Assembly: GCA_013265495.1 (NCBI GenBank)
Contig: MU057700.1
Span: 62,001 to 126,000 of the forward strand
Direction: 5' to 3'
From: Vicugna vicugna
Lineage: Eukaryota
Length of the DNA: 64,000 nt
Every line of letters starts with the position of its first letter. Within the stretch, counting starts at the first letter, position 1. The notes under the pieces were generated by a model. That model saw only the letters and a list, made by a program, of their open reading frames with translations, searched no databases and was not told the origin of the DNA. Position numbers and translations under genes: made by a program. Shown piece after piece: positions 2,285-56,078 of the stretch.

Positions 2285-3228
2285 GAGTCTTTCTTTGAAA
2301 AATAATTTAATTTGCTAACAAAATTATTAAATGTTTCACTTAGCAAAGCACACCTAAAAGGAACTAATGATAAAAAGAGAAGCTTAAATTAAGGCTTCAC
2401 AATTTCACATAGTCACAAAGACCAAAACCCAACAGTACTGGTATTATATTTCAATTTTCAAATTTAATGTTGTAAAATCTGAAGTTACCTTAAAGGATTT
2501 TAAATGGGGGAAAAAAAAGATTAGAAGGAAAAAAGCATCAAATTTTTAAAATATTATGGATCTAAGACCTTTAATAGAATTTTTTTAAAGCATGTCTCCC
2601 GAATGTGTTTAGATGAGTATGGTATAAAAGTTATTTCACAAAACTGAAATTACTTCAATATAAATATACAACTGCTGAGGTATGCCACTACAATATAAAT
2701 TGAAATAAGCTCAACATGCAAGAAGCATTTTGAGGCATTACAAAATACTGAAAAGGGATTCTAAAAAAATAAACAACTGATTTCACAAGTTCATGGTGCA
2801 AATTGGTTACACAGCTTCCACTTCTATAAAAACAGCTATTCGTTGTTCCTGGATTCCCCGTGTAAGGTTAGGCTGGAATCAGTAAAGGTTTCCTATAAAA
2901 CCAGCTGTCTTGACTAATACAGTATGTTTCACTGTGCTTCAATACCCACCTGCTTCATTTCTGTGGGACTAGAATACTTCAATATACCTGTGTCCCATGG
3001 TTTCTCTGTCTTTTTTCAGGGCCATTTGATATAATCTTCTGATTAGCATCCAACAAAAAAATGAGATCAACACCAGATGCCCCATATTCAGTTCTGGAAA
3101 TTCTGCACATCTCAGCAGACAAGCACCAGGACGAGCTGGGCCGCCAGTCCTCCACGGCCTTCAGGACCAAGCAGCAGAGACACCTGACAGGACAGGCATC
3201 AAACTCGCTTGGGTATGACTTTTTGTGG
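2285..3228 (-). pseudogene. Decayed, unprocessed HNRNPF paralog terminal exon (inverted duplicate)
   Basis: Reverse complement aligns to the HNRNPF exon. Acceptor ttttcag|ccacaaaaagt, same 51-nt leader, then LLLGPEGRGG (vs [10 protein letters not shown]) and [23 protein letters not shown] (from 3025; stop at 2971-2969). 3'UTR blocks gaagctgtg..tttgcaccatga..ttgtgaaatc and tttgctaagtgaaac follow. Confidence 0.92.
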
Positions 3229-4121
3229 CTGAAAATAAAGCAAAATCTGTAAATTTTTCATTTAATATATATAACAAGAATATGTAATGAACATAATTTT
3301 CTCCATTATATAGATGAGGAACGTAAAGATGAGTCAAATTACATAAAGAGCCTTTAAAATACCAAAAACATTTTAGAGCTGAGATTTAAGCCCAAGTCTC
3401 TGTTTCCAAAACTTATACAAACTCCCCCATCCCACCCACAAAGACTACCTAATTCACTAAAGGACAGAGTGCGCACAATTTAACTGAATCAAAATGGCAC
3501 TTAGAGGACATACTGCGGTAGGCCCTCTGGTGAAAGACCACAGCAGTGACAAAAGATATTTTAAAAATATGAATGGGTATGATTGCTGGAAAATGACAAG
3601 AGTCACCCTCAGTGGACAGGGAATTTTGAGGAATTCAAAGAAGATGGAGTGCCCACAGAGTTGTATCCATAGTCCAAAACCTGCAGGAGATGACAGCTTG
3701 AAAAGATGCAAGAAGCTCCAGCGACAGCTTGAGTTTTGGGGCTCCCTTCTCCTTGTACCCAGAGGGCTGGGAAAGCAGTTGTGGGTCCACTCCCAGGCTG
3801 GCAGAGAGGTAGTTAAGGTGCCCTTGGTGTCTGGCAGCAACCAAGATGCCTTAGGAATCCCATATCATTACTGGGGCACACACACCACGTCCTGTCCTGT
3901 TATCTATAAAGGGTAGAGGTAAACAGAATCAGGCCCACAGGGATTTTCATGCAACATCTGAAGAAAACCAACACCCCAAAGAGCATCACCTCATTGAAAG
4001 GACGGAAGGTAACACTGAAGAAAATTAAGTCAATACAGAAAGCAGGAGATTTTGAAAGATGGAGATTTTCAAAGATGTATGCCTAGTATGTTCACAGCAA
4101 TATGACAGATTGACACCTGTA

Positions 4122-4250: not shown

Positions 4251-4909
4251 TTTATGATAAAGAACAATTAGCCATCTCGGATATTAAAAATAGTGTCAAA
4301 ATCCAAAAAAAAAAATGCTCACAAAATTAAGGAAGTAGCAGAATAGAAGAAATTCGTAGAGTGGAATGGTGAGCTGGAAGATCCACTCAGTGATCTCAAA
4401 TGCAGTGCAAAGGTAAAGAGTAAGTATGATCTTTAGTTTAAAGGGACCAAGCTATAATTTCTAAAAGCAACTACTGAATGTCCTAGAAAGAAAGAGAATA
4501 AATGTGGGGTAATGCTCTAAGAATAGTAAGTAATACTCCAAACTGGAGAAAAATATGAGTCCACAGATTATATGTATCGCCATATGTCTAAAGAAGGAGG
4601 ATATATATAATTCAGATGTTTCAACATACTGGGAATATAAATATTTGTCAAGTTAAGGAGAGGGTGCCTTATAATGTCATGATAAAACCTGGTGATCCAA
4701 TAAAAAAAAAACTCTATAATATTCTTAGTTATAATTAAAGCAAAAACTCTTATCCTTAACCAATAACATAGGTTTACTTATTTGTGGTAGGAGGTATATT
4801 TACACAGAGTATGATTAATTATGGAAGCTGAATTTCATCTTGATCAAACTTCTGCTTTTTTTTTAATATGGCCCTATTCTCTTGGCCATATTTTATAGGC
4901 TCAGAAGTG

Positions 4910-4995
4910 CCCCCCACCCTTTTTAATGGAAGTACTGGGGATTGAAGCCAGGATCTCACACGTGCTAAGCATGAGCTCTACCACTGAGCTATTTC
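4910..4995 (-). mobile_element. tRNA-derived SINE
   Basis: ctggggattgaagccagg...gtgctaagcatgagctctaccactgagcta. Confidence 0.8.
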
Positions 4996-5334
4996 ACCTG
5001 ACAAAACCTTCTAATTTTTAACCCACTGTCAATGGCTTTAGTAATTGTTATGATTAACAGAACCAACAAAATAGTTTTTCTTAATACCTTTGTGGTCATA
5101 AGCAACCACTGGTTTTATCTTTATAACAAATTTTGGTTAAAATAAAGATGAATGAAGAATATATCAGAATTCCTTAAAACACAGGTAGAAAACCAAAATC
5201 CTGGCCATTCTACAAGGGAATCAGAATCACATCAGCAATGATGTTTACAAGAATATAAGACAGCAATGGCTTTTACATCCTAGGGGAATATACTTTCGAT
5301 CCTAAAATTCTCAATTAGAAAAAAAATCAAACTG

Positions 5335-5805
5335 ACAACATAACGCCATTTGCAGCAACATGGATGTTCCTGGAGAATGTCATTCTAAGCGAAGTAAGCC
5401 AGAAAGAGAAAGAAAAATACCATATGAGATCACTCATATGTGGAATCTAAAAAAAATAAAATAAAACATAAATACAAAACAGAAACAGACTCATAGACAT
5501 AGAATACAAACTTGTGGTTGCCAAGGGGGCAGGAGGTGGGAAGGGATAGACTGGGATTTCAAAATTTGTAGATACTGACAGGCATATGCAGAATAGATTA
5601 GTAAGATTATACTGTATAGCACAGGGAAATAGATACAAGATCTCTGGTAGCTCACAGTGAAAAAAAATGTGATAATGAATATATATATGTTTATGTATTT
5701 ATTTTTATAAATAAAAAATTGTGCTGTACACTGGAATTTGACACAACATTGTAAAATGACTATAACTCAATAAAAAAGTTAAAAAAAAAGAAAAGAAAAA
5801 AAATC
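5335..5805 (+). mobile_element. Relatively young L1 3' end with poly(A) tail
   Basis: gccatttgcagcaacatggatg...cactcatatgtggaatct...tgactataactcaataaaaaa followed by an A tail. Confidence 0.85.
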
Positions 5806-6549
5806 AATCAAGTAAGGCCTAAATGCAGATTTATTTCGATCCATGACACTATTTTTAAGAATTAGAGAATCGAATCTATCAAAATAAAAAAATAATTCTA
5901 AAAGGAAAATATGATACAAATAAATATAATGGTTAATGGCAGAAAAGTATACAATATATTGCTAAGTCTAAAGTAATATACTTTATAAAAAATAAAATAA
6001 AATTCTAAAATTAAGAGTAAATAATCTCCACTTGGGAGATACTGAACAGGAGGAAGTGGAAGATGCATATGCATAACTAGGACCTAGCAATCCTGCTTAC
6101 AAGTGCAATGCGGTGCGGCACACGATAGTGTAGATGAGCAAGCATCAGTAAGAAGCAGTTTAAATGGAATCACCATCACACAGCAACAAGGTGAGATGTG
6201 AAAACACCATGCTGGGGACAAATGAACAAATTCACCAGAAGAATATGAGTTATGTGCATTGCAGATACATACTCAGAAAACAAATTATACATAGTACAAG
6301 TTCACATATAAATAAAAGGATATACTTAATATGAATTAGAATTTGTACCATGACCAAAAAAAAACTGTTACCATGAACTGAGAATGGAAATAGGAAATGG
6401 GGATTAAAGGGAACAAATATATCAATATAACAAAGGGAAAAATAGAGTGTTGTAAACTAAAACAAAAAATTTACTCTGCCCTCCAGTCCAAATTAAAAAA
6501 CAGATAAATTAAAAAAAAAAGATTTGTGTAAAAAATAAAAACAAAATAT

Positions 6550-8632: not shown

Positions 8633-8634
8633 CA

Positions 8635-11600
8635 AAGCTTCCAGTTCAGGACAAGATGGAGAAGATACACTTCCTATTCCTCTCCCTAAATACAGCTAAA
8701 CATAATGGTACACAAAGAAACAAAACAAGACTGAAAGGTGGAGAGAAATGGCAGATCAAGAAGGGATCCTGGCCCCAAGAAATGACATGATGTTGGGCTT
8801 CCTGGGTTTTCTTTTTGCTTCTTGTATTTCACACAGGGTGTTAGAGAAGCCAGCAACCTGAAAATGCCAATAGGTGCAAATTTTTAAAAACCTAAGAAAA
8901 TCCTGGTCTTCGAGACAAAGGACGAGAAAAGGGACAGGACAGCCTTGTAAGACAAAACTTTTAGACAATAACCACCATACTCCAGCCAAGCTCCACAGAA
9001 AAAAAGGGTGATACCACCCCTATCCATATCAGCAAAGGCCTAATAGGAAGCCTAGACTTCCCCTTGCCAGCCTGCAAAACATACATCTTACCCTTCCAGC
9101 CAAGCTGCTGTCACTGAAGGTCCAGTGGGGAACCTAACAGCCATCCCAGTCCACTGGAATGAGGCATCTCTCTGATTCCCCACCCCCAGTCAACAGAGGC
9201 TGAGTGGAGAAACTGGACTTCTATTCTACCTGGCAATAATAAGGCAGCACCTCCCTTTCCCTTGCCAGTGTGGTGTCAGAGAAAACCTGCTAAAAATAGG
9301 AGATTTGGGTAACAGCCAGAGTCTCATGAAAATGCTCAAAATGTCCAGGATCAAAAAAAAAAAAACATCGCCCTACCAAAACCCAGGAGAAGAGCCACTT
9401 GAATGAGAAAAGAAAACCAAAAGACATCAACACCAATATTTGGACTATCTGACAAGGAATTTAAAGCAGCCATCACAAAAACGCTTCAAAGAGCGATTAT
9501 GAATATGTCTGAAACACATGAAAAAGTGCAACTCATCAGAGAAACAGAAGATTTAAAGAATCAAGTAGAAATTCTAGAACTGAAAAATACAATTACCAAA
9601 ATAAAAAACTCAAAAGCAGAAAGGAGCCAAAAGAGGAGAAAGGTAGAGCAATTGAATACAGAAAAACAGAAATTACCCAATCTGAATGACAGAAAACAGA
9701 GCAGCAGAAAATGACCGGGGCCTTTGGAAACTGTGGGACTATAACAAAAGATCTAACATTCACATCATAGGGAGTCCAAGAAGGGAAGGAGAAAGAGTGT
9801 GGGCCTAGAAAGTATCCGAAGAAATAACAAATAAAAATATTCCAATTTTGGCAAAACAACCCCAAAGGGTCATATGGGAAAACTATAAAGAATGCTACTC
9901 ACATAAATTTGGCAAGTGAGAGGAAATTTACCAATTCCTCAAAAAGCTACTACTACAGTTCTACCTACATGAACAGCCCTGTAATTATTTTAAAATTGAA
10001 TTTCTACTTTGAAAACTTCTCCTAAAATCTCCAGACCCAGGTGGTTTCACAGGAAAAGTAATACCAAATATTTAGAAAACAATTAAAATTGAGGGGAGGG
10101 TATAGCTCAGTGGTAGAGTGTGTGCTTACCACACACAAGGGCCTGGGTTCAATCCCCAGCACCTCCATCAAAATAAATAAATAAACAAACAAACAAATAA
10201 ATAAATAAAAGATTAAAAATAAACAAACAAACAAAAAAGAATTAAAACCAACTCTAAACAATCTCAGAAAATGGAAGAGGAGGGAACACTGCCCCAACTC
10301 ATTTAATGAGGTCAGGTACACCCTGATACCAAACCCAAAGACATCAAGAAAGAAAACTAGACCAATATCCTTCATAAATATAGATGCTAAGCCCTTCATA
10401 AAATATTAGCAAATAGATTTCAGTAATATAGAAAAAGAATTATACACCATGACCAAATAGAGTATGGATATGCAAGGACGGTTCAAGTTTGAAAATCAAT
10501 GTAATACATCATATCAGCAGGTTAAAGGAATATTATATGATCACATAAATTGACATCGGAAAAGCACTTGACAAAATGCAACATTCCATTCATGCTAAAA
10601 ATGCTCAGCAAGTTAGAAATGGAGGGGAATCACCACAACTTGATAAAGAGCATCTACAAAAAACTACAGCTAACACACTCAGTGGTGAAAAACTGCATGC
10701 TTCTTTCCAAGATTGGAACAAGACAAAGATGTCCACTTCACCACTCTAATTCAACATCATATTATAAATTCAACTCAGCAGAATAAGGCAAGAAAAGGAA
10801 ATAAAAGTATGTATTGAAACAGAAGTACTACCTCCTCTTTGCAGATGACATGATGTGCTACACAGAAAATCCCAAGAGATGTACCAAAAACAAAAAAACA
10901 AAAAACAAAAAACAAAAAACAGAAGGAAAAAAACTCCTAGAACTGTTTGTGGAGGGAGGGACCCTTAAATTAGGAGGCCCACCAAATTGTGGGTTCTTGG
11001 CACCTGCTGTGAAAGAATTCGCACAGCAGAAAGAATTCGCAGAAGGGGAAATGGGAGGAAAGTGCTTAAGTGAGGAAGAGGCACTCAAGCGGGGAGCCAT
11101 CAGCAAAGATGGGTGGTAGAGACAGCTCTGGCCCAGGTTGGGCCACATAGACTTTTATGGGAAGCTTCTGCCATCATGTCCGTCTTCAATGTGTGGTGGA
11201 GTCAATAAGTCCCTGCTCTGAGTTTTTCAGTCCTCTATGGGCTTTTCTGGTGGTTGTCACGGCAACTGTTAACTGTCATGGCACTCATGGGTATGTCACT
11301 GAGCATGTTAACACACACTACAATGAATGTATAATGAGGCTCAAGGTCGACTGGAAGTTAGATCCTCCACCATCTTGGTCTCTATGAGTTTTAACCAGTT
11401 CTTGTTTCTTCTCTGCAGCTGCCTCCTGAGACTTAGACCAGAGTAATTGGTTTCTGTATGAGGAAGGGGCAGGGGTATGATCCTGGGGGCAAGAGCCTTG
11501 GTAACAAAAAGGAAAGTTGCTTTTAATCAGAATGCCTGCAACCTTGTGGACCCAGCATCCCCCCTAAAAAACCACCTCCAAAGATTCTGTTCAGCCACGA

Positions 11601-13480
11601 AAGTTTTAAAGGGAAATGAAGGAATAATCTCAGTTAATCATTGAGATAGGTGGTCAGAGTTCTTGCCATCTCCCAAAGCCTGCAGGCTTGTCCTAATCAA
11701 CTACTTGAGCCTGCTCTTCTGTGACTCAGGGAGGCCTGAGAGACTTCAGCTTTTCTATAAACAAGAGACAGGGGTTGTGGGGGGTGGGGGACGGGACGCC
11801 ACAGGTCCTGCTAATAAGTTAAGCACAGTCATAGACTACATGATCAACATACAGAAATCAATTGTATTTTTATGTACTAGCAATAAAACATGTGGAAATA
11901 TAAATTTGAAATACCATTTATGATAGCTCAAAAAATTAAAATTACTTACATATCTCACATATCTAATAAAAAGTATGTAGGACTTGGATGCTAAAAACTA
12001 CAAAATGCTTATGAAAGAAGTCCAAGAAGCTCTAAGTAAATGAATAGACATACTGTGTTCACATATTGGAAGATTCAACATAGTGAAGGCAAATGTCAAT
12101 TCTCTCCCAAAATGATACTAGGATTAATACAATTCCTATCAAAATCTCAGCAGTATTTTGATTTTGCCTTTTTTAGGGGGTGGGGGGATTAGGTTTCTTT
12201 CTTTCTTTATTTACTTTTAGAAGAGGTACTGGGGATCGAACCCAGGACCTTGTGCATGCTAAGCATGCTGTCTACCACTGAGCTATACCTACCCCCAAGC
12301 AGTATTTTTTTAATAAATATAGACAAACTGATTCTAAAATTTACATGGAAAGTCAAAGGAACTAGGATAGCCAAACAATTTTGAAAAAGGTGAATAATGT
12401 TGAACTCAGACTGCACTATTTTGGAAATTAGCATAAAGTTACAATGAAGACAATGTAGTAATGATGAAAAGATACACATATAAATTAAGGGGACAGAGTA
12501 ACTAGTCCAGGTCCAGACCCACACAAATTTTTTTTCTGATTTTTAAAAAATTTTTTACAATACAGCAAAGGCAATTCAGCAGAGAAAGTAGTCTTTTCAA
12601 CAAATGGTGATGGAACAATTGTATATCCATATGCAGAAAAAAAAGAGAAAGAGAGAATATTGATTTAAACCTCACACCTCATTCAAAAGCAAAAAAAAAA
12701 ATAAACCTCAAAATAAATCTATACATAAAATATAAAAGTGTAAAACTTTTAAAAGAAAATACAGGTGAAAAATCTTTAAGACTTAGTGTTATGCAAAGAG
12801 TTCTTAGATATAACACCAAGGATCTGTATTTTCAAAGCATAAAGAACTATTAAAACTCAATAGGAAGGAAAGAACCCAATTTTTTTAAATGGGCAAAACA
12901 CTTGATCAGATAAATACCTTAAAAGGGTTATGGGGATGATAAGTAAGCTCATGAAAAAATAATCAACATTATGAGCCATTAGTGAAATGAAAATTAAAAC
13001 CATGACAAAATATGGCCATATACCCCTACAGAATGGCTAAAATACTTTTAAATGTTTTAAAAGATGTTAAGAAGATGTAAAGCAATCAGAACTCTCATAT
13101 ATTGCTAATGAGAATGCAAAATGGTACGGACACTTCTGGAAAAGTTTGGTAATTTCTTATAAAGTTAAATATTTACTCATTATATAATCTAGCAATCCCC
13201 TTGGGGCTAGGGAAATAAACTGGTACAACTGTCTTAGAAAGTGTCCTTATGTGATGAAGTTGAATGTGGGCAAACTCTATGACCCAGAAATTCCATCATA
13301 GGTACAGAAGCCAAAAGTAAGTCTGGCACGTGTGTCCCAGAAGACATGTCCTGATTCAAAGCATCACTGTTTACAATACGCCAAACTAGAAACAGCCTGT
13401 AAGTCCTTTAACAGAACAGTGGAGAAATAAATTGTTGCCTGCTTATCAAATGGAATACTTAGCAGCAAAAAGTACTACAG
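8635..13480 (+). mobile_element. Second old L1: 5'UTR, ORF1 and fragmented ORF2/3' end
   Basis: caggacaagatggag start; ORF1 relic (LSDKEFKAAI...EILELKNTITKIKNS); RT motif LFADDMMCYTENPK at about 10835-10875. Interrupted by SINEs (about 10091-10235 +, 12175-12296 -) and LTRs. Confidence 0.8.
10944..11810 (-). mobile_element. LTR insertion(s) nested in L1 ORF2
   Basis: Interrupts the L1 motif aaaactcctagaac^taataag. LTR-like composition, probably two nested LTR pieces. Confidence 0.6.
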
Positions 13481-13802
13481 CTTTATGCTTGGTTTTGGAA
13501 TAATTCTGTGAAAACAACAGAAGAGGTTAACTAACCAAAGAAAGGCACTTAAGAAAACATGGAGTAGGAAAACAATACATAAAGAATCCAAAGACATGCA
13601 GAACTGTTCAGTACATTTTTCTGTGGGACACAATTTTAGTCAAATTATGAAGAAAAGCAAGCAACTGACCAACATAAAATTCAAGATAGAGATGGGAGGA
13701 GCTGTGATGATTAGGACTACACAAAGGATCATAAAATAAAAGGCAGTGTTCTACTTTTCCTTCTTTTTTTTTTTCATCCAGTAGTCTTTTATTGGTCACT
13801 TA

Positions 13803-14286
13803 TGTGAACAAAAAATACAGCAAGCCATATCAGTAAACAAAGAATGTTGTGGCCATCAAGTCATCAGCCGCTACCACCAGCCCTGCCACTCCCTGCCAGT
13901 GAACTCAGGATGTAGACCAGCAGGCAGCCAGGCCTGAGGGACACCCTGACGGACGTGAAAGAACAGGATACTGGCCCTAGATAGCTAGGTGCATGTCAAA
14001 GGAATGTTTTCAAGAAGCCCAGACATTTGCACCTTCCCATACATAGAAAAGCACTAAATTCCTTAACTTGAGCTATCTGGTTTTCTTTCATTAACAGTAA
14101 TCTTTTGATGGTCCAGCTACCTGGTCTTTGTTTTTACTCTTATATATCCTGGCTCCTCCCCTACCTCTTTGGATCAGTCCCTCACTGCGATCAAGGGTTC
14201 GTTCAAAGGGTTCGATTCCTCAGAAATGTCCACTGAATAAAATATAACTCTCAACTTCTACGTTGTGCATTTTATTTCAGTAGACA
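13803..14286 (+). mobile_element. Solo LTR (ERV1-like)
   Basis: TG...CA ends, TATA-like tatatat about 14141, AATAAA about 14237, imperfect 4-bp TSD ctta/cata. Confidence 0.75.
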
Positions 14287-14649
14287 CATATGCCAGGTAC
14301 CAACATTAGAAAAAAAAAAGGTCAACCTAAAACAGTCTGTTATTTTTTAGCTTGCCTCTTCCCATAGTTTCTCTCACTACTCTACTGATCCACAATCACA
14401 GATGAAGGCAGCTTTACTGGTAACAGATCTTACAAAAAAGGAACACTCAATCAAGAGGCAAGAGAGCCATTGATAAATCCCTCCAAATACAGAAGTATCA
14501 GTCAGCAATCACTGTACCAACTGCCCAGAGCTTCACATACAGCGTCCCTTTAAGCCTAAGATTATGCCACGTTGTAGGGGAGGAGACAAGTTCTAAGAGA
14601 ATTCAACCTTGTTTGAAACTAGCCCAGGTACTATAGAGTAGACTACAAC

Positions 14650-15302
14650 TGTTGCCAACGGATGTAACTGGTGTTCCAGGTTCTTGTCCCAGAAAGAATT
14701 CAGAGACAAGAGGTGGAGGTTTAAATAAAGTAAAGTGAGGATTTATTAAGTAATGAATAGTATACTCTCAAGGGGAAAGCAGGCGGGCTCAGGTGAGCAG
14801 CTGCTGCAAGATTCTTTGGCAAGTTGGTTACGTAGAGTGTAAAAATGAACGGGCAGAATATTTATTGGGGAGGGAAGGGTCTGGCGTCATATTCCCTGAT
14901 TTTCATCCCAACTCCACCTTCCCAAAGGGAGGAGGGATTCTTTCCTTATTTAGGTTGGATCAGAAGTGTCATGACGTTGGTGCATGATGGGTACTTCTAA
15001 TCTGCAAGGCTAATTTTATTGAAATGAGGGGATAATAAGCAAAATGTTATAGTCGGACACTAGAAATTCCGGCCTTTTCCCACCTTTCTTTGTTAGCCTC
15101 CAGGCTGCTCATCATCCGCAAAGGTGTGACCACTTAGCCCAGAGGTTCCTGCTTTTCCTTCTCTGCCCAGGGACTGCTGGTGCTTACATGATGTATCGTT
15201 TCCTGCATTGGGCCTGTGTCTCTCCTTTCTGCCCAACTCCTGCCATTTGGCATGCATCCCCCTTTCTCTGCTCGTATCTATAGTTACCTGCCTGCTCTAA
15301 CA
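14650..15302 (-). mobile_element. Solo LTR (ERV1-like)
   Basis: tgttg...taaca termini; minus-strand AATAAA (tttatt about 14742). Confidence 0.7.
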
Positions 15303-15419
15303 CAGGAACTGTATGGAGAGCTTCATTACTACTATTCTTTTTCCAACTACCAAGACCAGTATTCAGAACCAATGGGAAGGGGAACCTGAGAGTAGAATTT
15401 TATTTCTTAAGATTAATGA

Positions 15420-15535
15420 AGGAGGGAAGGTATAGCTCAAGTGGCAGAGCGCATGCTTAGCATGCAGAGGTCCCAGATTCAATCCTCAGTATCTCCTCCA
15501 TAAATAAATAAACCTAATAACCCCCTCAAAAAAGG
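15420..15535 (+). mobile_element. tRNA-derived SINE
   Basis: ggtatagctcaagtggcagagcgcatgcttagc...; flanked by aag(a/g)ttaatga repeats. Confidence 0.85.
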
Positions 15536-16354
15536 TTAATGATGGGTACACAGATTCTAGGTTGAGCTGTATTCTTTACACCTTCGAGATATGTTTTACA
15601 ATATATCTATGTCATCTTTCTTAATTTTAAAGTGGGAGAAAAATAACTAAACTAAAAAATCTTGATAATAAAGAAAAAAATACGAGTGTGGGACAAAACC
15701 CTGGATCTACTCCCACAACCTGCTGAATGCAGGCTCATTCCAAGATGATTTGCCAAAAAGGAACCAGTGTAAAATGTAGTCATGAATATGACTAGAAAAA
15801 GAGAAAGAAAAGCAAATGGCTGACTACACAAATGCTGCAGCAAAGTGTGACCAAGAGGCAAAGGAACTCAATTAGGAAATATTTCAGACTGATGGATTTA
15901 AATTTAGTGAAGCTGATGAAGGAAGAACACAGAGAAGAGATGCAGATACAAAAGGAAGAACTAAAACTCCTTGGATTAGAAAAATTCAAAGGTTTGAACT
16001 ATTTCCTTAGGAAACAGGAAATGGGTAGGAGAAAAGCTTTTGAGTAATAAAGCCTCGTGCAAGCTTGGGAGTCTTTAAATATGTGACTTATTGCCTTAAG
16101 AAATAAAACAATGTTTTCCTACCACGGCTGCACCGTTTAAGGTGTCCTCGCAGGCAGGCGCAGACCTCTCAAACCTCCAGGTCCTAGGATGCGGATCCGT
16201 CTAGGGCTCCCCCAACATCCCTCCCCTAAAAAAGGGATTTTCCTCAAACTCGTCCCCTTCCGGCTCCTCCGGTCTCCGTCTCCCGGGGTGGGCTGGAGAC
16301 TCCTCCACTGAAGCCAAGGATACTCTTTGCTGCCTCTGCAAAGAACGACTCCGC

Positions 16355-17280
16355 CCCCATCCCAAATCGCAGACCCGCTGTCCCTACCCCCAGAGTCCCC
16401 AGTTGGTCAAGGGGTGCTGGTCTCGAACACGCTTCCCGTCCCACCCCTCAGCTCGGGTTTCGAATCTCCACCCTCCCGCTCTTATACACACCCAGCACCT
16501 CGGTCGTCCCTCTGAGCACCTAGAGGACGGAACGCGGAGGCCTAGCTGAGGCATTTTAGGCTAATTTATCATCACCATGGAAACCCCTAGGCGGGGCTCC
16601 TAGGGGGCGGAGCCAGGGGCGAGGCTAGCCGTAATCTTTAATTCCCGCTCGTCGTGCGCACGTAGCGCACGGCGCACGCAGCGCACGGAAGTGGCGTGCC
16701 CTGCCACCCTCGGCCCTGCGCCCATGCACCCGGCAACAAAAGCCCTAGGAGCCTGCGTCCCCGCCCCGCTTCCGGGTTCTCTCCAAACCCCACCTTCTTC
16801 TCCAGGAAGATGGGCGCAATCCTACTTGCAAAATCGAGCGGGAAGGACGCAAAGACTACGGCGGGGCGGGGCCCCAGTGGCGGGTGCCTGGGGGCGGGGC
16901 CGCAAGGGCCCCATGTGTCGCTCCTGGAGCGGAGCAGGGGATTAGTCGGCCAGGCTCGGGGCGGGGCCAGGGCTTCGGAGGGCGGGGTGCGGCGGGGGCG
17001 TGGGTGAGTGTGGTTGTGTGGGCGAAATTCTGGAGGCGGATCGTGGAGCAAGCGGCGGGAGGTGGGGGAGGTCTTATCAGGGGAGGCAGCGGGTTCGCAG
17101 AGCGCTCCTTAGCCACTGAAGCTACTGACTCGCAGTCTCCAAACAATGAGCCCAAAGAGCACTTGATTGAAGACCAGCGTGACAGAAGAAAATGAGAGTC
17201 ATTGCCTGACAAGGAGAAAGAGGGAGCCGAGAACCCCCGAGACCAATAAAGGCGGCTCCGAGGGCAGAACTTTAGGAACG
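16355..17280 (-). promoter_or_regulatory. CpG-island promoter, inverted paralog of the HNRNPF distal promoter/exon A
   Basis: Reverse complement matches 37390-38310, e.g. gactctcattttcttctgtcacgctggtc, gtctttgcgtccttcc, gtttccatggtga, taggtgctcagagggacgac, ccaactggggact. CpG-rich with GC boxes, CGGAAGTG and GCGCA repeats. Confidence 0.9.
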
Positions 17281-17746
17281 GGCGCAGGCTGCGCTCTCAG
17301 CTCTTGGGTCGCTACTCCGCACCGTCAGGTGACCTCACCTGGCTACTTCAAGGGGTTCCTTTGGCGGGCAGGGCTTTCGCCTCAGGCCCGATCCTCAGAG
17401 ACAAAGTTCTAGGTTGTCAACTCTTAAGACCTTCACTTCTGTAAGAAACGCGCCATTTCAGTGTCATTTGAGTTCTTGCTACATCCGGGCCAACTGTTTT
17501 TGCTGTAAACAAGACAGACTGAACTTTCCATTCTTTGGGAGAAGTTGTTTGTTAAGCACACATACACAGTCGGAATTAGCAGTATCGGGGACCAAGAGTT
17601 GTAATATTCTGCAGCAAAAGCTGCTAAGCAAATCTTTTGCTTTCTGTCTTATGATCAGATTCAGCGCTAAGAAGAAAAGGAATCCTGAGAGCCACCTTTG
17701 GTGACCTGAATGTCCTGATCAACATAAGCAGATCATGGAATTTTGA

Positions 17747-18160
17747 TGTCAGGTGAGGTCTCTCTCTGAGGAGATGGAAGGTGGGGATAATTAGACTAAT
17801 CATGCCTGAACAGTAAAAAACACAATGCAACCACAAAAAAGATGACCAAACATCCTCTCCCTAGCTAACATGAGTGTTGCTTCTCCAATGACAACTCTAG
17901 CCCTACTCCATTCCTCCAGCTTTCCAGATAAGTGTATCACTGAATTGCCCTTACTTTCTGACAGCACCAGAACAGATCCCTGTCTCTTTGGGCCCTCCCC
18001 AAACTAACACAAGCCCAAATACTATAATAAACCCTCTGATTTACACCCCCTTCGTGAGATACCCCAGGGTTCCCCAGAGTGTGAGGTCTCCCTCACTACA
18101 GCATACAACCCTTCATTGTTGGACCATGACTGTGTTTTGGTAGTCTTTGGTGGGCATCAC
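17747..18160 (+). mobile_element. Old solo LTR
   Basis: TG...CA ends with LTR-like U3 (ccagataag, tactataa) and U5 (ggtagtctttgg) text. Confidence 0.5.
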
Positions 18161-18927
18161 CAGTATGAAAACGTATTTATGATTGCACATAGCCGTACAA
18201 AAATAAAACCTTAGAGTCTATACTCTAATGAGAACTCAAAACATTAATGTTAATGGTAAAATGGGGCAAGCTCTTAGTATATAAAAATCTTCTAAATGCA
18301 ATGTGAGATTGAGGGGCTACACTCTTCTGGGCATGTAGCCATAGTCACTGAAAGTGACCACGCCTGGCCTAGGTCCTGCCCCAGTATTTGTCATCACATA
18401 GACAAAAGGAACCCCAGGATTTCTGCCTGCTTTCAGAGTGGGAATAAGCTGTAAGTGGGTAAGAATCACAAAGGTACAGGAGGAGAAGTTGTGTTAAGGA
18501 AGCATTGTCAAGTTTAAGAAGAAGGAATGAAATTGGACTCTGCAAACACATTACCACCGCTGAGCTTTCCCTGGTGTGGTGTCACACAGTCCCCATCCTT
18601 CATCCCAGGCATGGGAGTTGATACTCTAATGGAAGGCATCAGGCTATGATACACCAACAAAACAGAAAATAGGATACCCAAGCCTGGACACCAGATAGTC
18701 ACTGAGGGACTGGATATAGCAGTCCAGGTTTTCTCAGTAACAGTGGATAGAGATTTTCATTCAGGTAATCCTCCCGTAGTAAAAGAAAGATGGATATAAA
18801 TATTAGGGACAGAAGACACAATGAAAAGTATTTGTTTGACTTACAGTAATTGGGACTCCAGAAGGAGCTTGTCTTCCAGAATCTGATGGCTTTCATTATG
18901 TGGTGGGAATAGTGTCTACCCTTACAG

Positions 18928-20750
18928 CAGTGCTGGCCAATAGAAATATAATGTGAGCCACAAATGTAATTTAAAATTCTTCTAGTAGCCACATTTACAA
19001 AAGTAAAAACACAGGTAAGATTAATTTTAATATTTTTATTTGTATCAACATATTCAAAATATAATTTCATATGTAGTCAGTATATAACATTATCAATGAG
19101 ATGTTTGATGTTCTTTTCTCCTTCTTTGAAGGCTGGTGTGTGTTTTCCATTTATAGTACATCTCCATAAATTTTTTTAATCAGGAATTTTAATTTTTATT
19201 GGGAATACTTAATGTATATTTAGATTTCAAAAAATTTACAGTTGAAAAAGCAGACTCATATATCCATGTTGTTCCAAACATACTTAAAAGTTTTCCCATA
19301 ACTGGATTGAGTATGAGTTTTTATTTTAAATTAAAGCAAGGATGTGGAGAAATTGGAACTCCTGTGTGTTGCTGATAGAAATGTAAAATGGTGCAGCTGC
19401 TATGGAAAACAGTATGACAACTAAAAAAATTAAAAAGAATTGTCATATGATCAAGCAATTCTGTTTTCTGGATATGTACTCAAAAAAATTGAAGGCAAGG
19501 TCTAAAAGAGATATTTGTACACCAATGTTCACAGCAGCATTATTTATAATAGTTGAAAGGTAGAAGCAACCCAAGTGTTCACTGACCATTAAATGAATAA
19601 ACAAAATGTGGTGCATACATAAGAGGGAACATTATTCAGCCTTTTTAAAAAGGAAGGAAACTCTGAGACATGCCACTATTACTGAGTCCAAACTTGTTCT
19701 GCTCACCACACAACAGGCCAGTAAATCAGGAGATGAGGTGTTGGGGCAAGGAATAATGACTTTATTCAGAAAGCCTGAAGACTGAGAAGATGGCAGACTA
19801 ATGTCATGGAGAACCATCTTACCCAAGTCAGAATTTAGGCTCCCTTTATACTAAAAAGGGGGAGGGGTGTGGTTGGTTGTTCCAAACTTCTTGGTGTCAG
19901 AATCGTTTGTTTTTATAACTGTCCAGGTAGGTCAGGTCATGGTGTCCCTGTAAACCTCCAAGACAAATGTTATTTTCTATTCTGCAACTTTTTATCTTAT
20001 ATGAATGGGAAAGTGTTAAATCCTTAAAGATCAGAGCCTTGAGAACGGGCTGTCTTTGTATATTTCAGGCTATAGGAAACATTTTTTACAAAAGGTACAG
20101 AACTTGCATGACTAAGCCCAAGAAACAGAGCACAGGGTTAGAGCCAAAGAAACGGATCTAATATGGAGTCAGATTTGTTCTTCTCTATTACACTACAAGA
20201 CGGATGAACCTTGAGGACATTCGGCTATGTGAAAAGAGCCAGTCACAAAAAGACAAGTACTATATGATTCCACTTACATGAGGTATCAAAAGTAGATTTA
20301 TAGGGCCAGAAAGTAGAATGATGATGTTGCCAGAGACGGGGAAAGGTGGGAAATCGGGAATTGTTCACAGGTAAAGAGTTTCATGTTTTCAAGATAAAAA
20401 TGAGTTATGGAGGTTGCTTGCACAATACTGAATGTACTTAACATAGTGAACTTAGAAATGGTTAAGATGATACATTTTATTTATTTTTTTAAAATACTTT
20501 TTAAGAGCCATTTCTTTATTTGGGGTTTTTGGGGGGGGGGTAGGTAATTAGGTTTATTTATTTATTTTGAGAAGATACTGAGGATTGATTGAACCCAGGA
20601 CCTTGTGCATGCTAAGCATGTGCTTTACCACTTGAGCTATACCCTCCCCGCCCCCATAAATTTTATGTTGTGTATTTGACAAAATAAAAAGTCAGGTCCT
20701 CAGTCATACTAGCCACATTTCAAGTGCTCAACGAACCTGTGTGGCTGAAT
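18928..20750 (+). mobile_element. MER33/Charlie-type hAT element with nested L1 3' end, LTR (19677-20192) and SINE (about 20510-20650)
   Basis: Starts cagtgctggccaatagaaatataatgtgagccaca and ends ctagccacatttcaagtgctcaa. L1 3' text runs about 19340-20660; the LTR has imperfect TSD ccac/ctac. Confidence 0.75.
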
Positions 20751-23739
20751 GCCTGTCCCCCCACCAACCTTACCACACAAGACAGCTTTACACTGAAGGA
20801 AAGGAGGAACTGAAATCCTATCTGTACACCAGAAATTGATACATTGTAACTGACTATACTTCAATTAAAAAAATCCGATCTTCAACTAACACCCTGAAAG
20901 AACTGCCCTATGGCTCTGTCTCTGCTGGAAGCCACTGGCTTTCTTCACTCTGCCTGGAGGATTAGAACCTGTTTTTTCAGTCTTAGGTGTGGTACTCCTA
21001 CTAATTACTTCAGAAAAAAGTTTTTCCTTGAGGGAGTTTCACTTGTATACAGAAGGAAGTGCAGCCTTCTAAAACGCTAGCCCTCCCCGTTAACTCTGTG
21101 GGTGTAGTATTTCTCAGAAGAAACGCACCAGATGCTTCCTCTAACTCCGTTTGCCACCCTGCGAACTTTTATCCCACAATGGATTATTTCACTGTGATCC
21201 AATGTCCAAGATTTAAAAGCAGCTTTTTGTAAAATCTCATTTGTGAATAGCAAGAGATTTGAAATCTCAGGGACAGAAAGATGAAGGAGAGGTATGAAGC
21301 ATCACCAAGGTTTGCCATTGACTTTCCCTCTAGGGCCTAAGTGTGATTGGCTTTTATTTAAAGCTTTCAGTACAGTTTAGGGTCCCTCACAGGTGCTTAA
21401 CATAAATTTTAGACAAGGATTGACTGGAGTCATTATTTTTATTGCAATCTTCATATTTTAGTCCTATGCGATTTAATCGAATTTTCTGTTTCAGAGTTTT
21501 TAATGAAATGTGACCCTGAGAAAACTTTTTCTTTTCTGAAAAGGCATGATTGCATACATGCTGTGCTCTTTCAGAAAAGGAAAAAAAAAAAAAAAAAAAA
21601 AAAAAAGCTTTGTGGTAAGCTAAGCTGTCTAAACACAAAGAACAATTTAATTCTCTTTATCTTCCATACCATTAAGCATGGAGCTCAAATAAGTTCTCAA
21701 AAAGTATTTGCTGATTGCTAGAAGTGCTTCTTCAGTAGGTGTTCATGTGTAATCTAAATGAAATTAATCTGGTTTTATTTTAAAAGGTTTAAATGTCTTT
21801 GTTGCTCACCAGTAATCAAGGGTGGGGACCAAATGTAGTTACTACTGTGTCCAGAGCAGCTGGCATAGTCCCCTGCCTGAAGGAAGAACCAAAATAAACT
21901 GCTTTGAAATGAATATCTAATTGCACTTATTAATCCTTAGGAAGAATTCTCATGTAAATATACTAAGTGTTTAAAAAGTAGAGCAAAAGTGAGGTTTTCA
22001 ACATCGCTCAGATTTTATAAACGTAAAGTCACATTTCAAGGGCACACTTGCCCAAGTGAGTTCAGTGTCAAAAAGAACCATGCTCACAGAGCTCAGCCAT
22101 GTAAAGGGGCCTGTGTCAGTCGTGGTCTGGATGAATGAAAACCAACTTTGTGACTCTTAAATCAGCCAGAACCCCCCATAGAAAACAAAAAGTTCATAGT
22201 TAACATTTTCAGGAAATGGCCACTTGCTTTTTTTTCCATAGTAAAGTGAAAGCAAGTTTATTTCGAGAGATATTCATAGAAGAATGCAGTCTGTCTCAGA
22301 AGGGACAGTGGCTTACAAATTGCTTTTTATTGCATTTACAGATTTCATTTATTATAGATTATTATCTTAGATTTATTTATAGATTTAATATTCACGATCA
22401 CATTGTAGATTGAGTCAGGTGGCCCTCTCACTTAGAGGACAAAAGAAAGGCCTTTGCCATTAGTAACTTGTAGTTGTCACTTAGCAGACGTCAGACTGGC
22501 CAGGAAAGAAGAGAAAGTTATGGTTCAAATGCCTTATTTCACTGCTGAAGAGACTCAACTCTGGCAAGTTAAGTGATTTTTCCAAAGTTGCCCAAATAGT
22601 AAATGGTTGCATAGAAACCTGGAGTACTTTGATCCCATTCAAATGGTCGTCCTCTTAAGTCAGACTAATTCTTTGCTCTGTGTGTGTGTGTGTGTTCCTT
22701 GCTTTGCACGGCAGCATGGGCTTGTCAGAGTGGCCATGCAAACTGAAACCACGCAAAGCAATCTTAATACTCAGTGGGGGAATATTACCATCGTTCGGTG
22801 ACCTTTGAAATTTTTTACCAAAACATTTAAAACTCTCTTGACAGTTATATATGTGTATTGGGAAATGAACATAATACTAAAACTAATATTTATTTTGTAT
22901 TATATAACTTACTAGAAACATTGAGCATTAAAGTGTTTTATTTATAAAAACTTACCAAGAGTAGTCTAAACAACACTTGCTGCTTCTTTCATTGTATAAT
23001 TTACGATAGAGCAAGCATCTTTTCAGTGCCTTGGTGAATTGTCATACCCCTTTATAAAATGTTGTCAGCTTCCAACATTTTATCCTTTCCACTTTTAATG
23101 TCATGAAATATCTCCAAGAAGCCGTGAATGTGAAGTTTTTTGCCAGCATCACATCCTCTAGGACACCTTCATCTTTTTCATCACACTTTTCTCATTTCTG
23201 CTGATAAGTTTTCCTTCAACGGGTTCCTCTAGTTGCAGATCTAGTCTCCTGAACAGCAGCAGTGTCAACATTCCTCCATTCAGCTGTTTCTTCCATAAAT
23301 CCATTTACGCTCGATTCCAGTTTCACACCCAGCACTCACTTTTCATTTACTTGCTGCACTTTCCTCTTTGTTGGTCAGTTCCCCCCTTTTTTTTTTTCAT
23401 TATACTGTTTAGTCTCTTTATTTTTCTGTATTTTTGAAAATTTCCATAATAAAATAAGTTTTTTAAAATAAGAAGTGTTTTTTGATACTATTATAAAACA
23501 TCAAAAAATTCTTTTTTTTTAAATGAAGACTTCCAGGCAGAAAAAATATAACTTTCTGAAGGACCATTAACTAGTACATTAAGTTAAATCGTATAACAGT
23601 TAGTTAGAAACTGACAAATATAATTTTTAAAATATTATATGAATTACTGAATATTAACATATCAATAAAGGACCACTGAAAGTTGGAATTTTAAGCCAAA
23701 AGCAGAAAACTTTGATAAATTTAACTTCAATTCTAGGTA

Positions 23740-23965
23740 TGAGTGTGGTGTCTGGGGTCAGCCAAATCTAGGTTTGTATCCTAGTTCTGCCCTTTTCTAT
23801 CTACTATTCTATCTACTAGATAACTAGAGTGATTCTGGCAAATCATTTAACTTCTGTGAACCTCAGGTTTACATCTTTAAAGTGGAGGTGAAAAAATTCA
23901 TCAGTAGAGAGAGCACTTAGCACAGGGCCTGCCATATACTAAGTGCTGAGCAAATAAATAATTCC
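23740..23965 (+). mobile_element. MIR
   Basis: ggcaaatcatttaacttctgtgaacctcaggtttacatctttaaagtgg...agcacttagcacagggcctg. Confidence 0.7.
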
Positions 23966-23967
23966 AC

Positions 23968-24151
23968 TACCCTATTTTGTCACTTCTAAATGAACATTTT
24001 TTTGTATTCTAACATCTCTGAAGTTGGGATACAACTCATAATTGATGGGATATCATAGTTTAATTCACAGAATTTTTCTTTCTTTAGGAGTATGTAAAAT
24101 AATGGTGCATACTACAAATGGATAGCATCTCAGTTTCAACCTAATATGGTA
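23968..24151. mobile_element. TcMar-type MITE (MER104/Kanga-like)
   Basis: taacatctctgaagttgggat...ataatggtgcatactacaa with degenerate terminal inverted repeats. Confidence 0.5.
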
Positions 24152-35912: not shown

Positions 35913-38084
35913 GTCATTGCTATTTGACAGATAATGTGATTTTGAGTAAAAGCCTTCTCTGAGCCTTGGTCATCCTGCCTATCCAGCAGCACTCTCCTGG
36001 GAAAGGAAGAGAAATTAAAGCTTAATGGGTAAAATCTTCTTTCAAGGGGTATCAGCTAGAAAATTCTAGACAATACAAACCTCTGGAAAAGTTTCCAGAG
36101 ATGAGCTTTTAAAACTTAAAATATTTATTAAAAGGTATAAGTCTGTGATAATAATCTGTTTACACAAACAATAGGAAATAAACAGGCAAGTCTATTTGTA
36201 AATGGATACATCTTGGGATGATTTTCATTTGCGGTGAATTCATTGTTTTTAAACCAGACTGTTGAGGTGTATCTCTGTGCAGGTACTCTCAAGAATGAAA
36301 AAAAAAAGTCTCTTTTTAGATTTCAGAGCTTGGGTGAGACATAGAGGTGAAAAGAAAAGGTGGAGGCCTCTAAAGCCCCACAGTTGAGGAGGCAGTCCAA
36401 GTAGACCAGGTGTGTGGGCAAGCATCCTCCAATTGGTGACATGAGACAGACATCTGTGGAACAGACCTGGCATCTGTGGCACCAGTCGAAGTGATTCCAG
36501 CCCTTACTGTGGAAGAGGGCCTACAAATGACTCACTTACCAAAAGATGTCTTGGAGGACACCTGGGGTAACTCCCTAGGAACAAAGTGGTGCTCATAATC
36601 AGGACAAGGCCCTAGTCTTTTGTTCAGAGAAGACCTCAAAGATTATTGCATCACTGATGAATGCTGGAGAACTGTCAGACTTGATGAGGAGTTCAAAAAG
36701 CCCACCTGGCTCAGAGGCTCTCTTACTAGATTGCATGAACGTATCTTCTTGGACCTGCTTTCAGTCTCTAAATTCCGAAGCATCATTACTATTGGCATAA
36801 TTTTAATATTTGCCTCAGCTACTTGCATTTTCCCTCAAGAAACAGACTTTTCTACAGTACCAGCTGTGTTGTCATTAGGCTTCTTAGGAATACCTATTTG
36901 ATTTTTGTAGGACCTGTTTTCTGTAATTATGCCTCAGATTAATTTTATGGTACATTTTCACCTCCTCTGACAGCTTCAGCTTTTTACTCTTCCCATTTTC
37001 GTCTTTCCTGGAATCAGCTTCTTTTGAGAAACTGTGTTCTTTCCTTTACTAGAGTCGGCCATTCCTAATCCCTATTCCAAGTACTCCCTTAACTGATGAT
37101 TTTAAAAGATCTTCTGCATAAACAGTGATGAGTGCCTTGATATCATCCTCTTTATGAACCGAGTCTCTAAAAATAAAATGGTAGTAATTACTAATCCCAG
37201 AACACTTAAAAAAACCCAGCTCCACTGCCTCAGGCAGGGTAACCATTTCCATACAGCCTGTCGACTTAGATGCTCACTGACTGAAAACTCTCATTCGCCC
37301 TGAGTCATCTGGGTCACCTTCGGAGGCACCGGGGCTTCTCAGCCTAAGGGATAATCACGTGAGCAACCTCAGTCAACCTACTAATTCTTCCCTAAACCCT
37401 GCCGCAGAAGCCGCCTTTGTCTCCAGTATTCTCGGTTCCCTCTTTCTCCTCGGCAGGAAAAGACTCTCATTTTCTTCTGTCACGCTGGTCCTCAATCCAG
37501 GCATCCTTTGGGCTCACTGGGAAACTCTCGGAGTCAGTATCTTTAGAAGCTCAGGAGCGCGCAGCGACCTACCTCCCTCTCCTGAGCAAGGTCCAGCCGC
37601 TCCCCTCCCCACACCACCCAAGCTCTGCAGGCCTCGGCCCCGCCCCAAGTCTGGCCGACCAATCGCTGGCTCTGCTCCAGGTGCGTCACAATGGCGCCCT
37701 CGCGGCTCCACCCCCCGGAAGTTCGCCACGGAGACCCCGCCCCGTCGTGGTCTTTGCGTCCTTCCGGCTCGGTCTTGGAAGTGGGACTGCTCCGCGTCTT
37801 ACTGGAGAGAAAGGTGGGGTTCTGCGGGGGAACCGGCCCGCATTCACGGCGGCAGCCGGAAGCGGGGCGGGAGCGTGGGCTTCTCAGGCTGGTGTTCCTG
37901 GGTGGTTGGGCGCAAGGCCGGAGGGCGGTGGGGGGCAGGGCACGTCGAGGGTAGAAGGGCTTCCGGAAGCTCCGCGTGCGCAAGACGCGCGGGAGTTGTG
38001 GACTCAGGCCCGCTGCGCGCCTGACCCCGCCCCCCGGAAGCCCCGCCCAGGGCGCGCTGCCAGGGGTTTCCATGGTGACGGTAA

Positions 38085-38211
38085 ACAAGCCTCAACTGCC
38101 TCAGCTACAACTGCCAAGTCCCCCGCGTTCCACCCTCCTTTAGGTGCTCAGAGGGACGACAGAGGTGCCAGATGTGAATAAGAGCGGGAGTGTGCAGACT
38201 CGAAGCCCGAG
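38085..38211 (+). other. HNRNPF: Candidate HNRNPF first exon A (non-coding)
   Basis: Donor CCCGAG|GTGAGG at 38212 just downstream of the promoter motif cluster. TSS is approximate. Confidence 0.5.
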
Positions 38212-38289
38212 GTGAGGGGTGGGACGGGCAGCGTGTCCCGAGTCCCGCACCCGCTAACCAACTGGGGACTGCGGCCCCTGGGGGTGAGG

Positions 38290-38645
38290 ACTGAGGAGCT
38301 GAGATTTGGGGTAGGGAGAAGAGAGGTCTGAGGTCAAGGGCCGCACACACGGAGACCGACCGGGGACCGAGGGGCTGAGATTTGAGTAGGGGGTGGGGAG
38401 GTCAGGGAAGTGCGGTCTGGGGTGAAGTGCCACACACCTGGGGTCCAACACGGGACTGGGTTCACTGAGGGGTAGGGTTTGCGGGGCTTGAGATTTAGGG
38501 TCGGGGGAGGTGGGGTCTAAGGTCACGGGCCGCACACCCGGAGACCGCGGAATTGAGATTTGGACTTCGGGGAGGTGGGCTTGAGGTGAAGGGCCTTACA
38601 ATCCGAGACTGGACCGGGAGCTGAGATTTGGGGTTTGGGGAGGCA
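38290..38645 (+). repeat. Degenerate G-rich tandem repeat, about 5 units anchored by TGAGATTT
   Basis: TGAGATTT at 38300, 38376, 38489, 38554 and 38622. The first four are followed by G-tracts and variants of gaggtca-gggccgcacac-cggagacc; the fifth by G-tracts only. Confidence 0.75.
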
Positions 38646-54833: not shown

Positions 54834-56078
54834 ATGATGTTGGGCCCCGAGGGAGGTGAAGGTTTTGTGGTCAAGCTCCGTGGCCTGCCCTGGTCCTGCT
54901 CTGTTGAGGATGTGCAGAATTTCCTCTCCACCTGCACAATTCATGATGGGGCCGCAGGCGTTCATTTTATCTACACTAGAGAGGGCAGGCAGAGTGGTGA
55001 GGCTTTTGTTGAACTTGAATCAGAAGAAGATGTAAAAATGGCCCTTAAAAAAGACAGGGAAAGCATGGGACACCGGTACATTGAGGTGTTCAAGTCCCAC
55101 AGAACCGAGATGGATTGGGTGTTGAAGCACAGTGGTCCAAACAGTGCCGACACCGCCAATGATGGTTTTGTGCGGCTTCGAGGACTCCCATTTGGATGCA
55201 CCAAGGAAGAAATCGTTCAGTTCTTCTCAGGGTTGGAAATCGTGCCAAACGGGATCACATTACCTGTGGACCCTGAGGGCAAGATTACAGGGGAAGCCTT
55301 TGTGCAGTTTGCCTCCCAGGAGTTAGCTGAGAAGGCTCTAGGGAAGCACAAGGAGAGAATAGGGCACAGGTATATCGAGGTGTTCAAGAGCAGTCAGGAA
55401 GAAGTCAGGTCATACTCGGATCCCCCTCTGAAGTTCATGTCGGTGCAGCGACCGGGGCCCTATGACCGCCCCGGCACAGCCAGGAGGTATATCGGCATTG
55501 TCAAACAAGCAGGCCTGGAGAGGATGAGGTCCGGAGCCTACAGTGCAGGCTATGGGGGCTACGAGGAGTACAGCGGCCTTAGCGATGGCTATGGCTTCAC
55601 CACCGACCTGTTTGGAAGAGACCTCAGCTACTGTCTCTCTGGGATGTACGACCACAGGTATGGAGATGGCGAGTTCACTGTCCAGAGCACCACCGGGCAC
55701 TGCGTCCACATGAGGGGGCTGCCCTACAAGGCCACGGAGAACGACATTTACAACTTCTTCTCTCCGCTCAACCCGGTGAGAGTCCATATTGAGATTGGCC
55801 CTGATGGAAGAGTGACGGGCGAAGCTGATGTTGAGTTTGCCACTCATGAAGAAGCTGTGGCGGCCATGTCCAAAGACAGGGCCAACATGCAGCACAGATA
55901 CATAGAACTTTTCTTGAATTCCACAACGGGGGCCAGCAACGGGGCTTATAGCAGCCAGATGATGCAAGGCATGGGGGTGTCAACCCAGTCCACTTACAGT
56001 GGCCTTGAGAGCCAATCCGTGAGTGGCTGTTACGGGGCTGGCTACGGTGGCCAGAACAGCATGGGAGGGTATGACTAG
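54834..56078 (+). CDS. HNRNPF: Heterogeneous nuclear ribonucleoprotein F (three qRRM domains, GYR-rich linker), intronless CDS, 414 aa
   Basis: Translation [23 protein letters not shown]...[38 protein letters not shown]...GQNSMGGYD is recognisably hnRNP F rather than H1/H2. The ORF track starts at GTG 54828; the first ATG is 54834 and TAG ends at 56078. Confidence 0.98.

What the first reader, a model, noticed from the sequence alone, without database searches (positions are those of the whole stretch)
16355..17280. Duplicated HNRNPF promoter has stayed a CpG island and may have been co-opted
Seen: the promoter twin remains CpG-dense and clearly alignable while its coding exon has decayed. 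Established: methylated CpGs decay over time, so persistence suggests germline hypomethylation. From recalled human synteny, KRAB-ZNF genes (ZNF487, ZNF239 cluster) lie on the promoter side of HNRNPF. Inference: this twin promoter now drives a leftward transcript, possibly a ZNF487-like gene or lncRNA beyond the window, i.e. promoter birth by duplication of a housekeeping gene. No KRAB exon was recognised in the window.
Basis: partly seen in the sequence, partly recalled or inferred. Interest (0 to 1): 0.7.

Follow-up and report, generated by a model that had tools for sequence, protein, structure and literature searches.

The report
Old HNRNPF promoter copy, likely ZNF487's
An ancient mirror-image copy of the HNRNPF gene lost its coding part but kept a CpG-rich promoter, and that promoter sits where the neighbouring zinc-finger gene ZNF487 should start, so one promoter probably came to serve two unrelated genes; transcription itself was not observed.

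Summary
16355-17276 is an inverted copy of 37391-38316, the 5' CpG island of HNRNPF: 81% identical without gaps, E 1.7e-130. It belongs to an unprocessed duplicate whose coding exon (2290-3400) is dead. CpG decay is absent: 40 of 59 aligned parent CpGs are kept, against 53 of 72 GpCs; in the dead exon none of 8 is kept. Published human coordinates put the ZNF487 5' end 27.7 kb upstream of HNRNPF, on the divergent strand. Scaled, that is about 15.5 kb here, and the twin is the only island in 1-37400. ZNF487 (105 Ma) and HNRNPF exon 1 are both testis-biased. HNRNPF is a retrogene, so the promoter may first have belonged to the zinc-finger gene. No transcript or human alignment was seen. The scan had not noted this before. 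It is a new case of a known process.

The parts
16355..17276 (-). Promoter twin: inverted copy of the HNRNPF 5' promoter block, core of a CpG island (island call 16087-17480)
16795..16856 (-). Homologue of the candidate HNRNPF P1 first exon, with its splice donor AAG|GTGGGG unchanged near 16794; proposed start of the leftward transcript (inferred)
   Evidence: donor scored with a recalled frequency matrix; 8 of 320 GT sites in the HNRNPF islands score as high
16571..16584 (-). RFX X-box-like palindrome, 13 of 14 bases identical to the parent site at 38066-38079
   Evidence: the motif name is recalled and the pattern was written after seeing both copies
2919..3400 (-). Dead copy of the 5' part of the HNRNPF coding exon (qRRM1 remnant) plus about 170 bp of upstream intron; acceptor AG intact, exon begins at 3228
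2290..2904 (-). Dead copy of the HNRNPF 3' UTR, joined to the qRRM1 remnant across a deletion of about 930 bp; the parent AATAAA is changed in the copy
5218..5325 (-). Short homologue of HNRNPF last-intron sequence 53976-54082
37391..38316 (+). Parent block: upstream part of the HNRNPF 5' CpG island (37400-39718), with candidate P1 exon about 37750-37813
   Evidence: P1/P2 spacing compared with human CAGE peaks
54834..56078 (+). Intact single-exon HNRNPF coding sequence, 414 aa

Best explanation
Early in placental evolution about 19 kb spanning the HNRNPF promoter to its 3' end was duplicated as DNA in inverted orientation (shown: homologous promoter, intron and exon blocks in mirrored order). 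One copy kept the coding exon. In the other the exon died and most of the interior was lost or replaced by repeats, but the promoter, candidate first exon and donor stayed an unmethylated CpG island in the germ line (shown by CpG fate). That island most likely works as a TATA-less GC-box/ETS/RFX promoter firing leftward, and is the orthologue of the human ZNF487 promoter. Its first exon would splice over a long intron containing the dead HNRNPF exon to KRAB and zinc-finger exons beyond the window's left end (inferred). HNRNPF and ZNF487 would thus have paralogous promoters. Which gene owned the promoter first is open.
For: Mirrored blocks including intron DNA. CpG kept as often as GpC, 40 of 59 versus 53 of 72, where a toy methylated-branch model gives 6-46% survival. 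TG+CA o/e is 0.94 in the twin, against 1.19 in the dead exon and 1.20 in background. Human HNRNPF spans hg38 43,385,617-43,409,166 (PMC6303322 supplement) on the minus strand. ZNF487 spans 43,436,841-43,483,179 (PMC6718674 table) on the plus strand, aged 105 Ma (PMC10547255 supplement). The 27.7-kb gap, scaled by HNRNPF length (0.81), predicts 15.4-15.6 kb; the twin island is 16.1-17.5 kb and is the only one in 37 kb. The human KRAB-to-finger body starts about 39 kb further on (arithmetic), which explains why no KRAB is in the window. ZNF487 is low everywhere and at least 3 times higher in testis; HNRNPF exon 1 is testis-higher; both copies keep an X-box-like site. The candidate exon-1 donor and the dead exon's acceptor are intact.
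Against: No transcript, chromatin or human sequence was examined. Long exact runs are not above permutation (p 0.14, 0.37, 0.25), and only 5 of 15 parent motif hits are unchanged. The intron flank of the dead exon is as conserved as the promoter. Islands can stay unmethylated by sequence alone (PMC5001583 abstract). Positional scaling is rough: a random island would fall within 1.5 kb of the prediction about 8% of the time (my arithmetic). Whether ZNF487 survives in this lineage is unknown. The P1 exon assignment in the window is inferred, and the candidate P2 donor fell below my score threshold.
Confidence: 0.65

Rival explanations
1. Reversed direction (a variant of the best explanation). 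The promoter belonged to the ancestral KRAB-zinc-finger gene. An hnRNP H retrocopy landed in its long first intron and used the host's first exon. An inverted duplication then separated the two jobs: today's HNRNPF is the derived copy, and the 'twin' with its dead exon is the original site, where the zinc-finger gene regained read-through.
For: HNRNPF is a eutherian-specific retrogene, and 13 human retrocopies are expressed as chimeras from host introns (PMC4772013 passages). ZNF487 is dated to 105 Ma. Homology stops at the HNRNPF 3' end and the polyA hexamer is changed in the twin. The dead exon is H-like at 2 of 21 diagnostic residues, a hint of an early split.
Against: No outgroup was examined. 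Both directions predict the same layout. The 2 H-like residues are weak: 9 are F-like, 7 other, 3 gaps, and about one chance hit is expected. In PMC4772013 about 86% of retrocopy promoters were not taken from parents or neighbours.
Confidence: 0.25
2. Orphan island. The twin is a passively maintained CpG island, perhaps with low-level or lncRNA transcription (possibly into the dead exon, or rightward from the donor at 17003), and is not the promoter of a zinc-finger gene in this species.
For: No constraint beyond CpG retention. Hypomethylation is DNA-encoded. No KRAB or C2H2 signal among 113 frames or by motif scan. No protein relative for one twin reading frame.
Against: Position, orientation, age and testis bias match human ZNF487, and no other island is available within 37 kb. 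The neighbouring half-island and the second island did not survive in the copy, while the piece with the candidate start and donor did.
Confidence: 0.27
3. The similarity or the CpG content comes from recent gene conversion or from an assembly duplication.
For: The two arms are inverted and only about 20 kb apart.
Against: 19% mismatches spread evenly (69-91% identity per 60-column bin), many indels, longest exact run 29 bases; divergence is similar to that of the other duplicated blocks (K2P 0.22-0.38).
Confidence: 0.03

Closest known systems
NPEPPSP1-TBC1D3 promoter relocation by partial segmental duplication (PMC12871316; abstract read)
   Same: A duplicated promoter of one gene, with a pseudogenised body, placed next to an unrelated gene and driving it.
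   Different: That case is about 8.9 Ma old, 110 kb long and shown by transcripts. This one is about 100 Ma old, local and inverted, the partner is a KRAB-zinc-finger gene, and transcription is inferred only.
Retrogene promoter recruitment, including HNRNPF itself (Carelli et al. 2016, PMC4772013; passages read; supplements not available)
   Same: HNRNPF is named as a eutherian retrogene with a testis-biased exon 1; host-intron chimeras and CpG-island recruitment are described.
   Different: The passages seen mention no second, dead HNRNPF copy and no shared promoter with ZNF487.
Promoter evolution of mammalian duplicates (PMC10100218; abstract and section 5 read)
   Same: Deals with sequence similarity between duplicated promoters.
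   Different: It compares promoters of paralogous genes and finds similarity is rapidly lost; here the two promoters would drive non-paralogous genes and remain 81% alike.
Unprocessed (duplicated) pseudogene with a surviving CpG island
   Same: Intron-containing copy, disabled frame, promoter retained.
   Different: The promoter appears to serve a neighbouring gene, not the pseudogene.

Membership tests
CpG island (thresholds recalled: at least 500 bp, GC at least 0.55, o/e at least 0.65) | Length, GC content and CpG o/e | tested here: met
   1394 bp, GC 0.61, o/e 0.73
CpG island | Unmethylated in the germ line | tested here: met
   Indirect, from substitutions: CpG kept 40 of 59, TG/CA rare; no bisulfite data
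Unprocessed HNRNPF pseudogene | Homology includes non-exonic DNA of the parent | tested here: met
   Intron flank 120 of 148 identical, a second intron block and the promoter
Unprocessed HNRNPF pseudogene | Disabled reading frame, derived from hnRNP F and not hnRNP H | tested here: met
   Frameshifts, stop, deletion; 9 F-like, 2 H-like, 7 other, 3 gaps of 21 sites
ZNF487 promoter orthologue | Position and divergent orientation relative to HNRNPF | tested here: met
   (published coordinates, rough scaling)
ZNF487 promoter orthologue | Sequence aligns to the human ZNF487 first exon | not testable with these tools
   No mammalian genome held; no ZNF487 guide sequences in four supplements searched
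ZNF487 promoter orthologue | KRAB and zinc-finger exons downstream | tested here: inconclusive
   None in the window; expected outside it from human spacing
Promoter exaptation by duplication (NPEPPSP1-TBC1D3 type) | Transcript starts in the duplicated promoter and splices into the neighbour | not tested
   No read-level data obtained
Promoter exaptation by duplication (NPEPPSP1-TBC1D3 type) | Donor gene owned the promoter first | not testable with these tools
   Needs outgroup genomes; HNRNPF is a retrogene
Selectively constrained regulatory element | Conserved blocks or motifs above neutral expectation | tested here: not met
   Permutation p 0.14-0.37; 5 of 15 motifs unchanged; pairwise test of low power

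The most novel reading that the evidence does not exclude
The twin locus is the birthplace of HNRNPF. An hnRNP H retrocopy landed in the first intron of the ancestral ZNF487-like gene and borrowed its promoter. An inverted duplication in the placental stem then gave each gene its own copy of that promoter, leaving a dead HNRNPF exon as a fossil in the zinc-finger gene's intron. This would trace the origin of a major splicing factor's promoter and explain the shared testis bias.
Probability: 0.25. Interest if true: 0.65.

Novelty: new member of a known kind. Interest (0 to 1): 0.45.

Why it matters
If right, two unrelated placental genes, a splicing regulator and a KRAB-zinc-finger gene, run on paralogous promoters that are still alignable after about 100 million years. 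That is a much older case of promoter sharing by duplication than the primate examples, and it gives a concrete handle on where the HNRNPF retrogene got its promoter. It is quickly testable with public human and camelid data. It does not describe a new mechanism.

Tried and rejected
Whole genome: none held. RNA runs: 20 of 24 listed runs hold part of 15900-17500; 14 RNA or guessed-RNA runs hold 13-21% of sampled words, of which 4 are on record as RNA. No read alignment was obtained, so this is not used as evidence. Protein search with one of three leftward twin frames against longer proteins: 0 of 1863 candidates scored (weak). Pfam on 113 frames from 1-16400: no KRAB or C2H2; 5 frames gave sub-cutoff hits regarded as noise. 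Motif scan of all six frames: six weak pattern hits, none KRAB-like in context. Rfam on 1-40000: only 5 tRNA-like SINE heads. Search for copies of 38317-39700 and 47900-51500 in 3400-16400, and of 35000-37400 in 17270-35000: nothing better than E 2. Clustering of conserved runs: not significant. F-versus-H residue table was mis-indexed and is replaced. ZNF487 guide sequences or TSS rows: absent from the supplements of PMC5094855, PMC6303322, PMC8381491 and PMC5062975 (some files were cut or unsearched). PMC5425846, PMC12933910 and PMC13135900 gave nothing usable. ZNF239 rejected as the driven gene. Earlier scan notes: none on this locus.

Full report
Setting. The window is mammalian and holds an intact single-exon HNRNPF coding sequence at 54834-56078 (+), 414 aa. 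Its first domain matches hnRNP F structures best per domain. tRNA-like SINE heads resemble the camelid SINE (recalled), and earlier scan notes call this genome camelid. No whole genome is held. Four island calls were made: 16087-17480, 37400-39718, and 48206-48706 plus 48942-49387 around an N gap; background CpG o/e is 0.16.

The observation. 16355-17276 aligns inverted to 38316-37391 (69% over 993 columns, E 1.7e-130), with 681 of 841 ungapped columns identical. Three more mirrored blocks complete the picture: 5218-5325 (last intron), 2919-3400 (intron end plus first part of the coding exon) and 2290-2904 (3' UTR). Because intron DNA and promoter are included, this is a DNA-level duplicate, not a retrocopy. 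Its exon is dead: frameshifts, a stop, an internal deletion of about 930 bp, and 33 non-synonymous or stop codons against 16 synonymous among 82 alignable codons. At 21 residues where hnRNP F and H differ it is F-like at 9, H-like at 2, other at 7 and gapped at 3. Divergence between copies is K2P 0.22-0.38. With recalled lineage rates that points to about the placental or boreoeutherian stem; this dating is rough.

CpG fate. Of 71 parent CpGs, 40 are kept, 4 read TG/CA, 15 changed otherwise and 12 are gapped; the count from the twin's side is 40, 5, 17 and 8. In the exon block none of 8 is kept and 5 read TG/CA. Pooled over both directions, p is 4.6e-6, on a small control. CpG survives as often as GpC (40 of 59, 53 of 72), whereas a toy model of one methylated branch gives 6-46%. 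The twin has no TG/CA excess (0.94 against 1.19-1.20). Long-term germline hypomethylation is therefore well supported.

What is not supported. Alignability alone shows nothing: the dead exon's intron flank is also 81% identical, although promoter against exon plus UTR differs modestly (p 0.001). Exact runs are not clustered beyond permutation (p 0.14, 0.37, 0.25), and only 5 of 15 parent motif hits (four GC boxes, one ETS) are unchanged. Islands can resist methylation by sequence alone (PMC5001583, abstract). So selection on the twin is not shown from this pair.

Which part of the promoter is it? Human HNRNPF has two CAGE starts 1.4 kb apart (PMC5094855 supplement). In the window the matching candidates are an exon at about 37750-37813 and one at about 38850-38953, 1.1 kb apart, the same 0.8 ratio as the whole gene (assignment inferred). 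The duplicated block contains the first of these. In the twin it maps to about 16856-16795 with the donor AAG|GTGGGG unchanged. An X-box-like palindrome about 300 bp downstream is kept at 13 of 14 bases and occurs only at these two places in the window (the pattern was written after seeing both copies). The second start region and the second island have no copy.

What it drives. Human ZNF487 spans hg38 43,436,841-43,483,179 (PMC6718674, table passage) on the plus strand, is dated to 105 Ma, and has its KRAB-to-finger body at hg19 43,971,174-43,978,429 (PMC10547255 supplement). HNRNPF ends 5' at 43,409,166 on the minus strand. The genes are thus divergent and 27.7 kb apart. Scaled, the ZNF487 start falls at 15.4-15.6 kb of the window, next to the only island in 37 kb. 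The KRAB exons would lie more than 10 kb beyond the left edge, consistent with none being found. ZNF239 starts about 165 kb away and points inward, so it is not the target. [quoted passage not shown] RFX2 is a testis regulator (search listing only). All of this fits, and all of it is indirect: no reads were aligned, and no human sequence was compared. The word shares in RNA runs are not used.

Direction. HNRNPF is a retrogene and had to recruit one. Insertion into a host intron is a documented, minority route. A zinc-finger host whose promoter was first borrowed and then duplicated predicts the same layout, including homology that ends at the HNRNPF 3' end and a changed polyA hexamer in the twin. 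I cannot separate the two directions without outgroups; I give the reversed one 0.25 overall, within the 0.65 for the ZNF487 link.

Comparison and novelty. It works like the NPEPPSP1-TBC1D3 promoter relocation (PMC12871316, abstract), but membership rests on an untested transcript. Full-text searches for ZNF487 with HNRNPF (1 paper, unrelated), ZNF487 alone (32 papers, 31 listed), HNRNPF retrogene or alternative promoter and duplicated-promoter terms showed no description of this duplicate in the listings and passages I saw. The library lacks most subscription papers, the supplements of PMC4772013 could not be seen, and genome-browser self-alignments may already show it. Verdict: real, probably the ZNF487 promoter, a new and unusually old member of a known kind; interest 0.45.

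Noticed in passing
window 3184-3228 (-): The dead exon keeps its acceptor and has a moderate donor-like site (CAG|GTGTCT) about 45 bases in, absent in the parent, plus stronger ones at 2988 and 2950; it could serve as a small 5' UTR exon of the leftward transcript.
   Followed up: partly
window 17003 (+): A strong donor-like site (TGG|GTGAGT) inside a stretch of about 60 bases that the parent lacks; a rightward antisense transcript from the island is possible.
   Followed up: no
window 17172-17200 and 37462-37490: The longest exact match between the copies (29 bases) lies in an AT-richer upstream block with no motif that I recognised; not significant by permutation.
   Followed up: partly
window 15720-16080 (+): Purine-rich, coding-looking stretch with stops just left of the island, perhaps a decayed processed pseudogene; no Pfam hit.
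   Followed up: partly
window 38258-38650: Degenerate repeats of a GAGATTTGG-containing unit in the parent island, beginning where homology with the twin ends.
   Followed up: no
window about 25400-30200: G-skewed block that looks like a decayed endogenous retrovirus interior on the minus strand, between the two promoters (identification by eye).
   Followed up: no
window 48708-48942: Assembly gap of 235 N in the second HNRNPF island.
   Followed up: no
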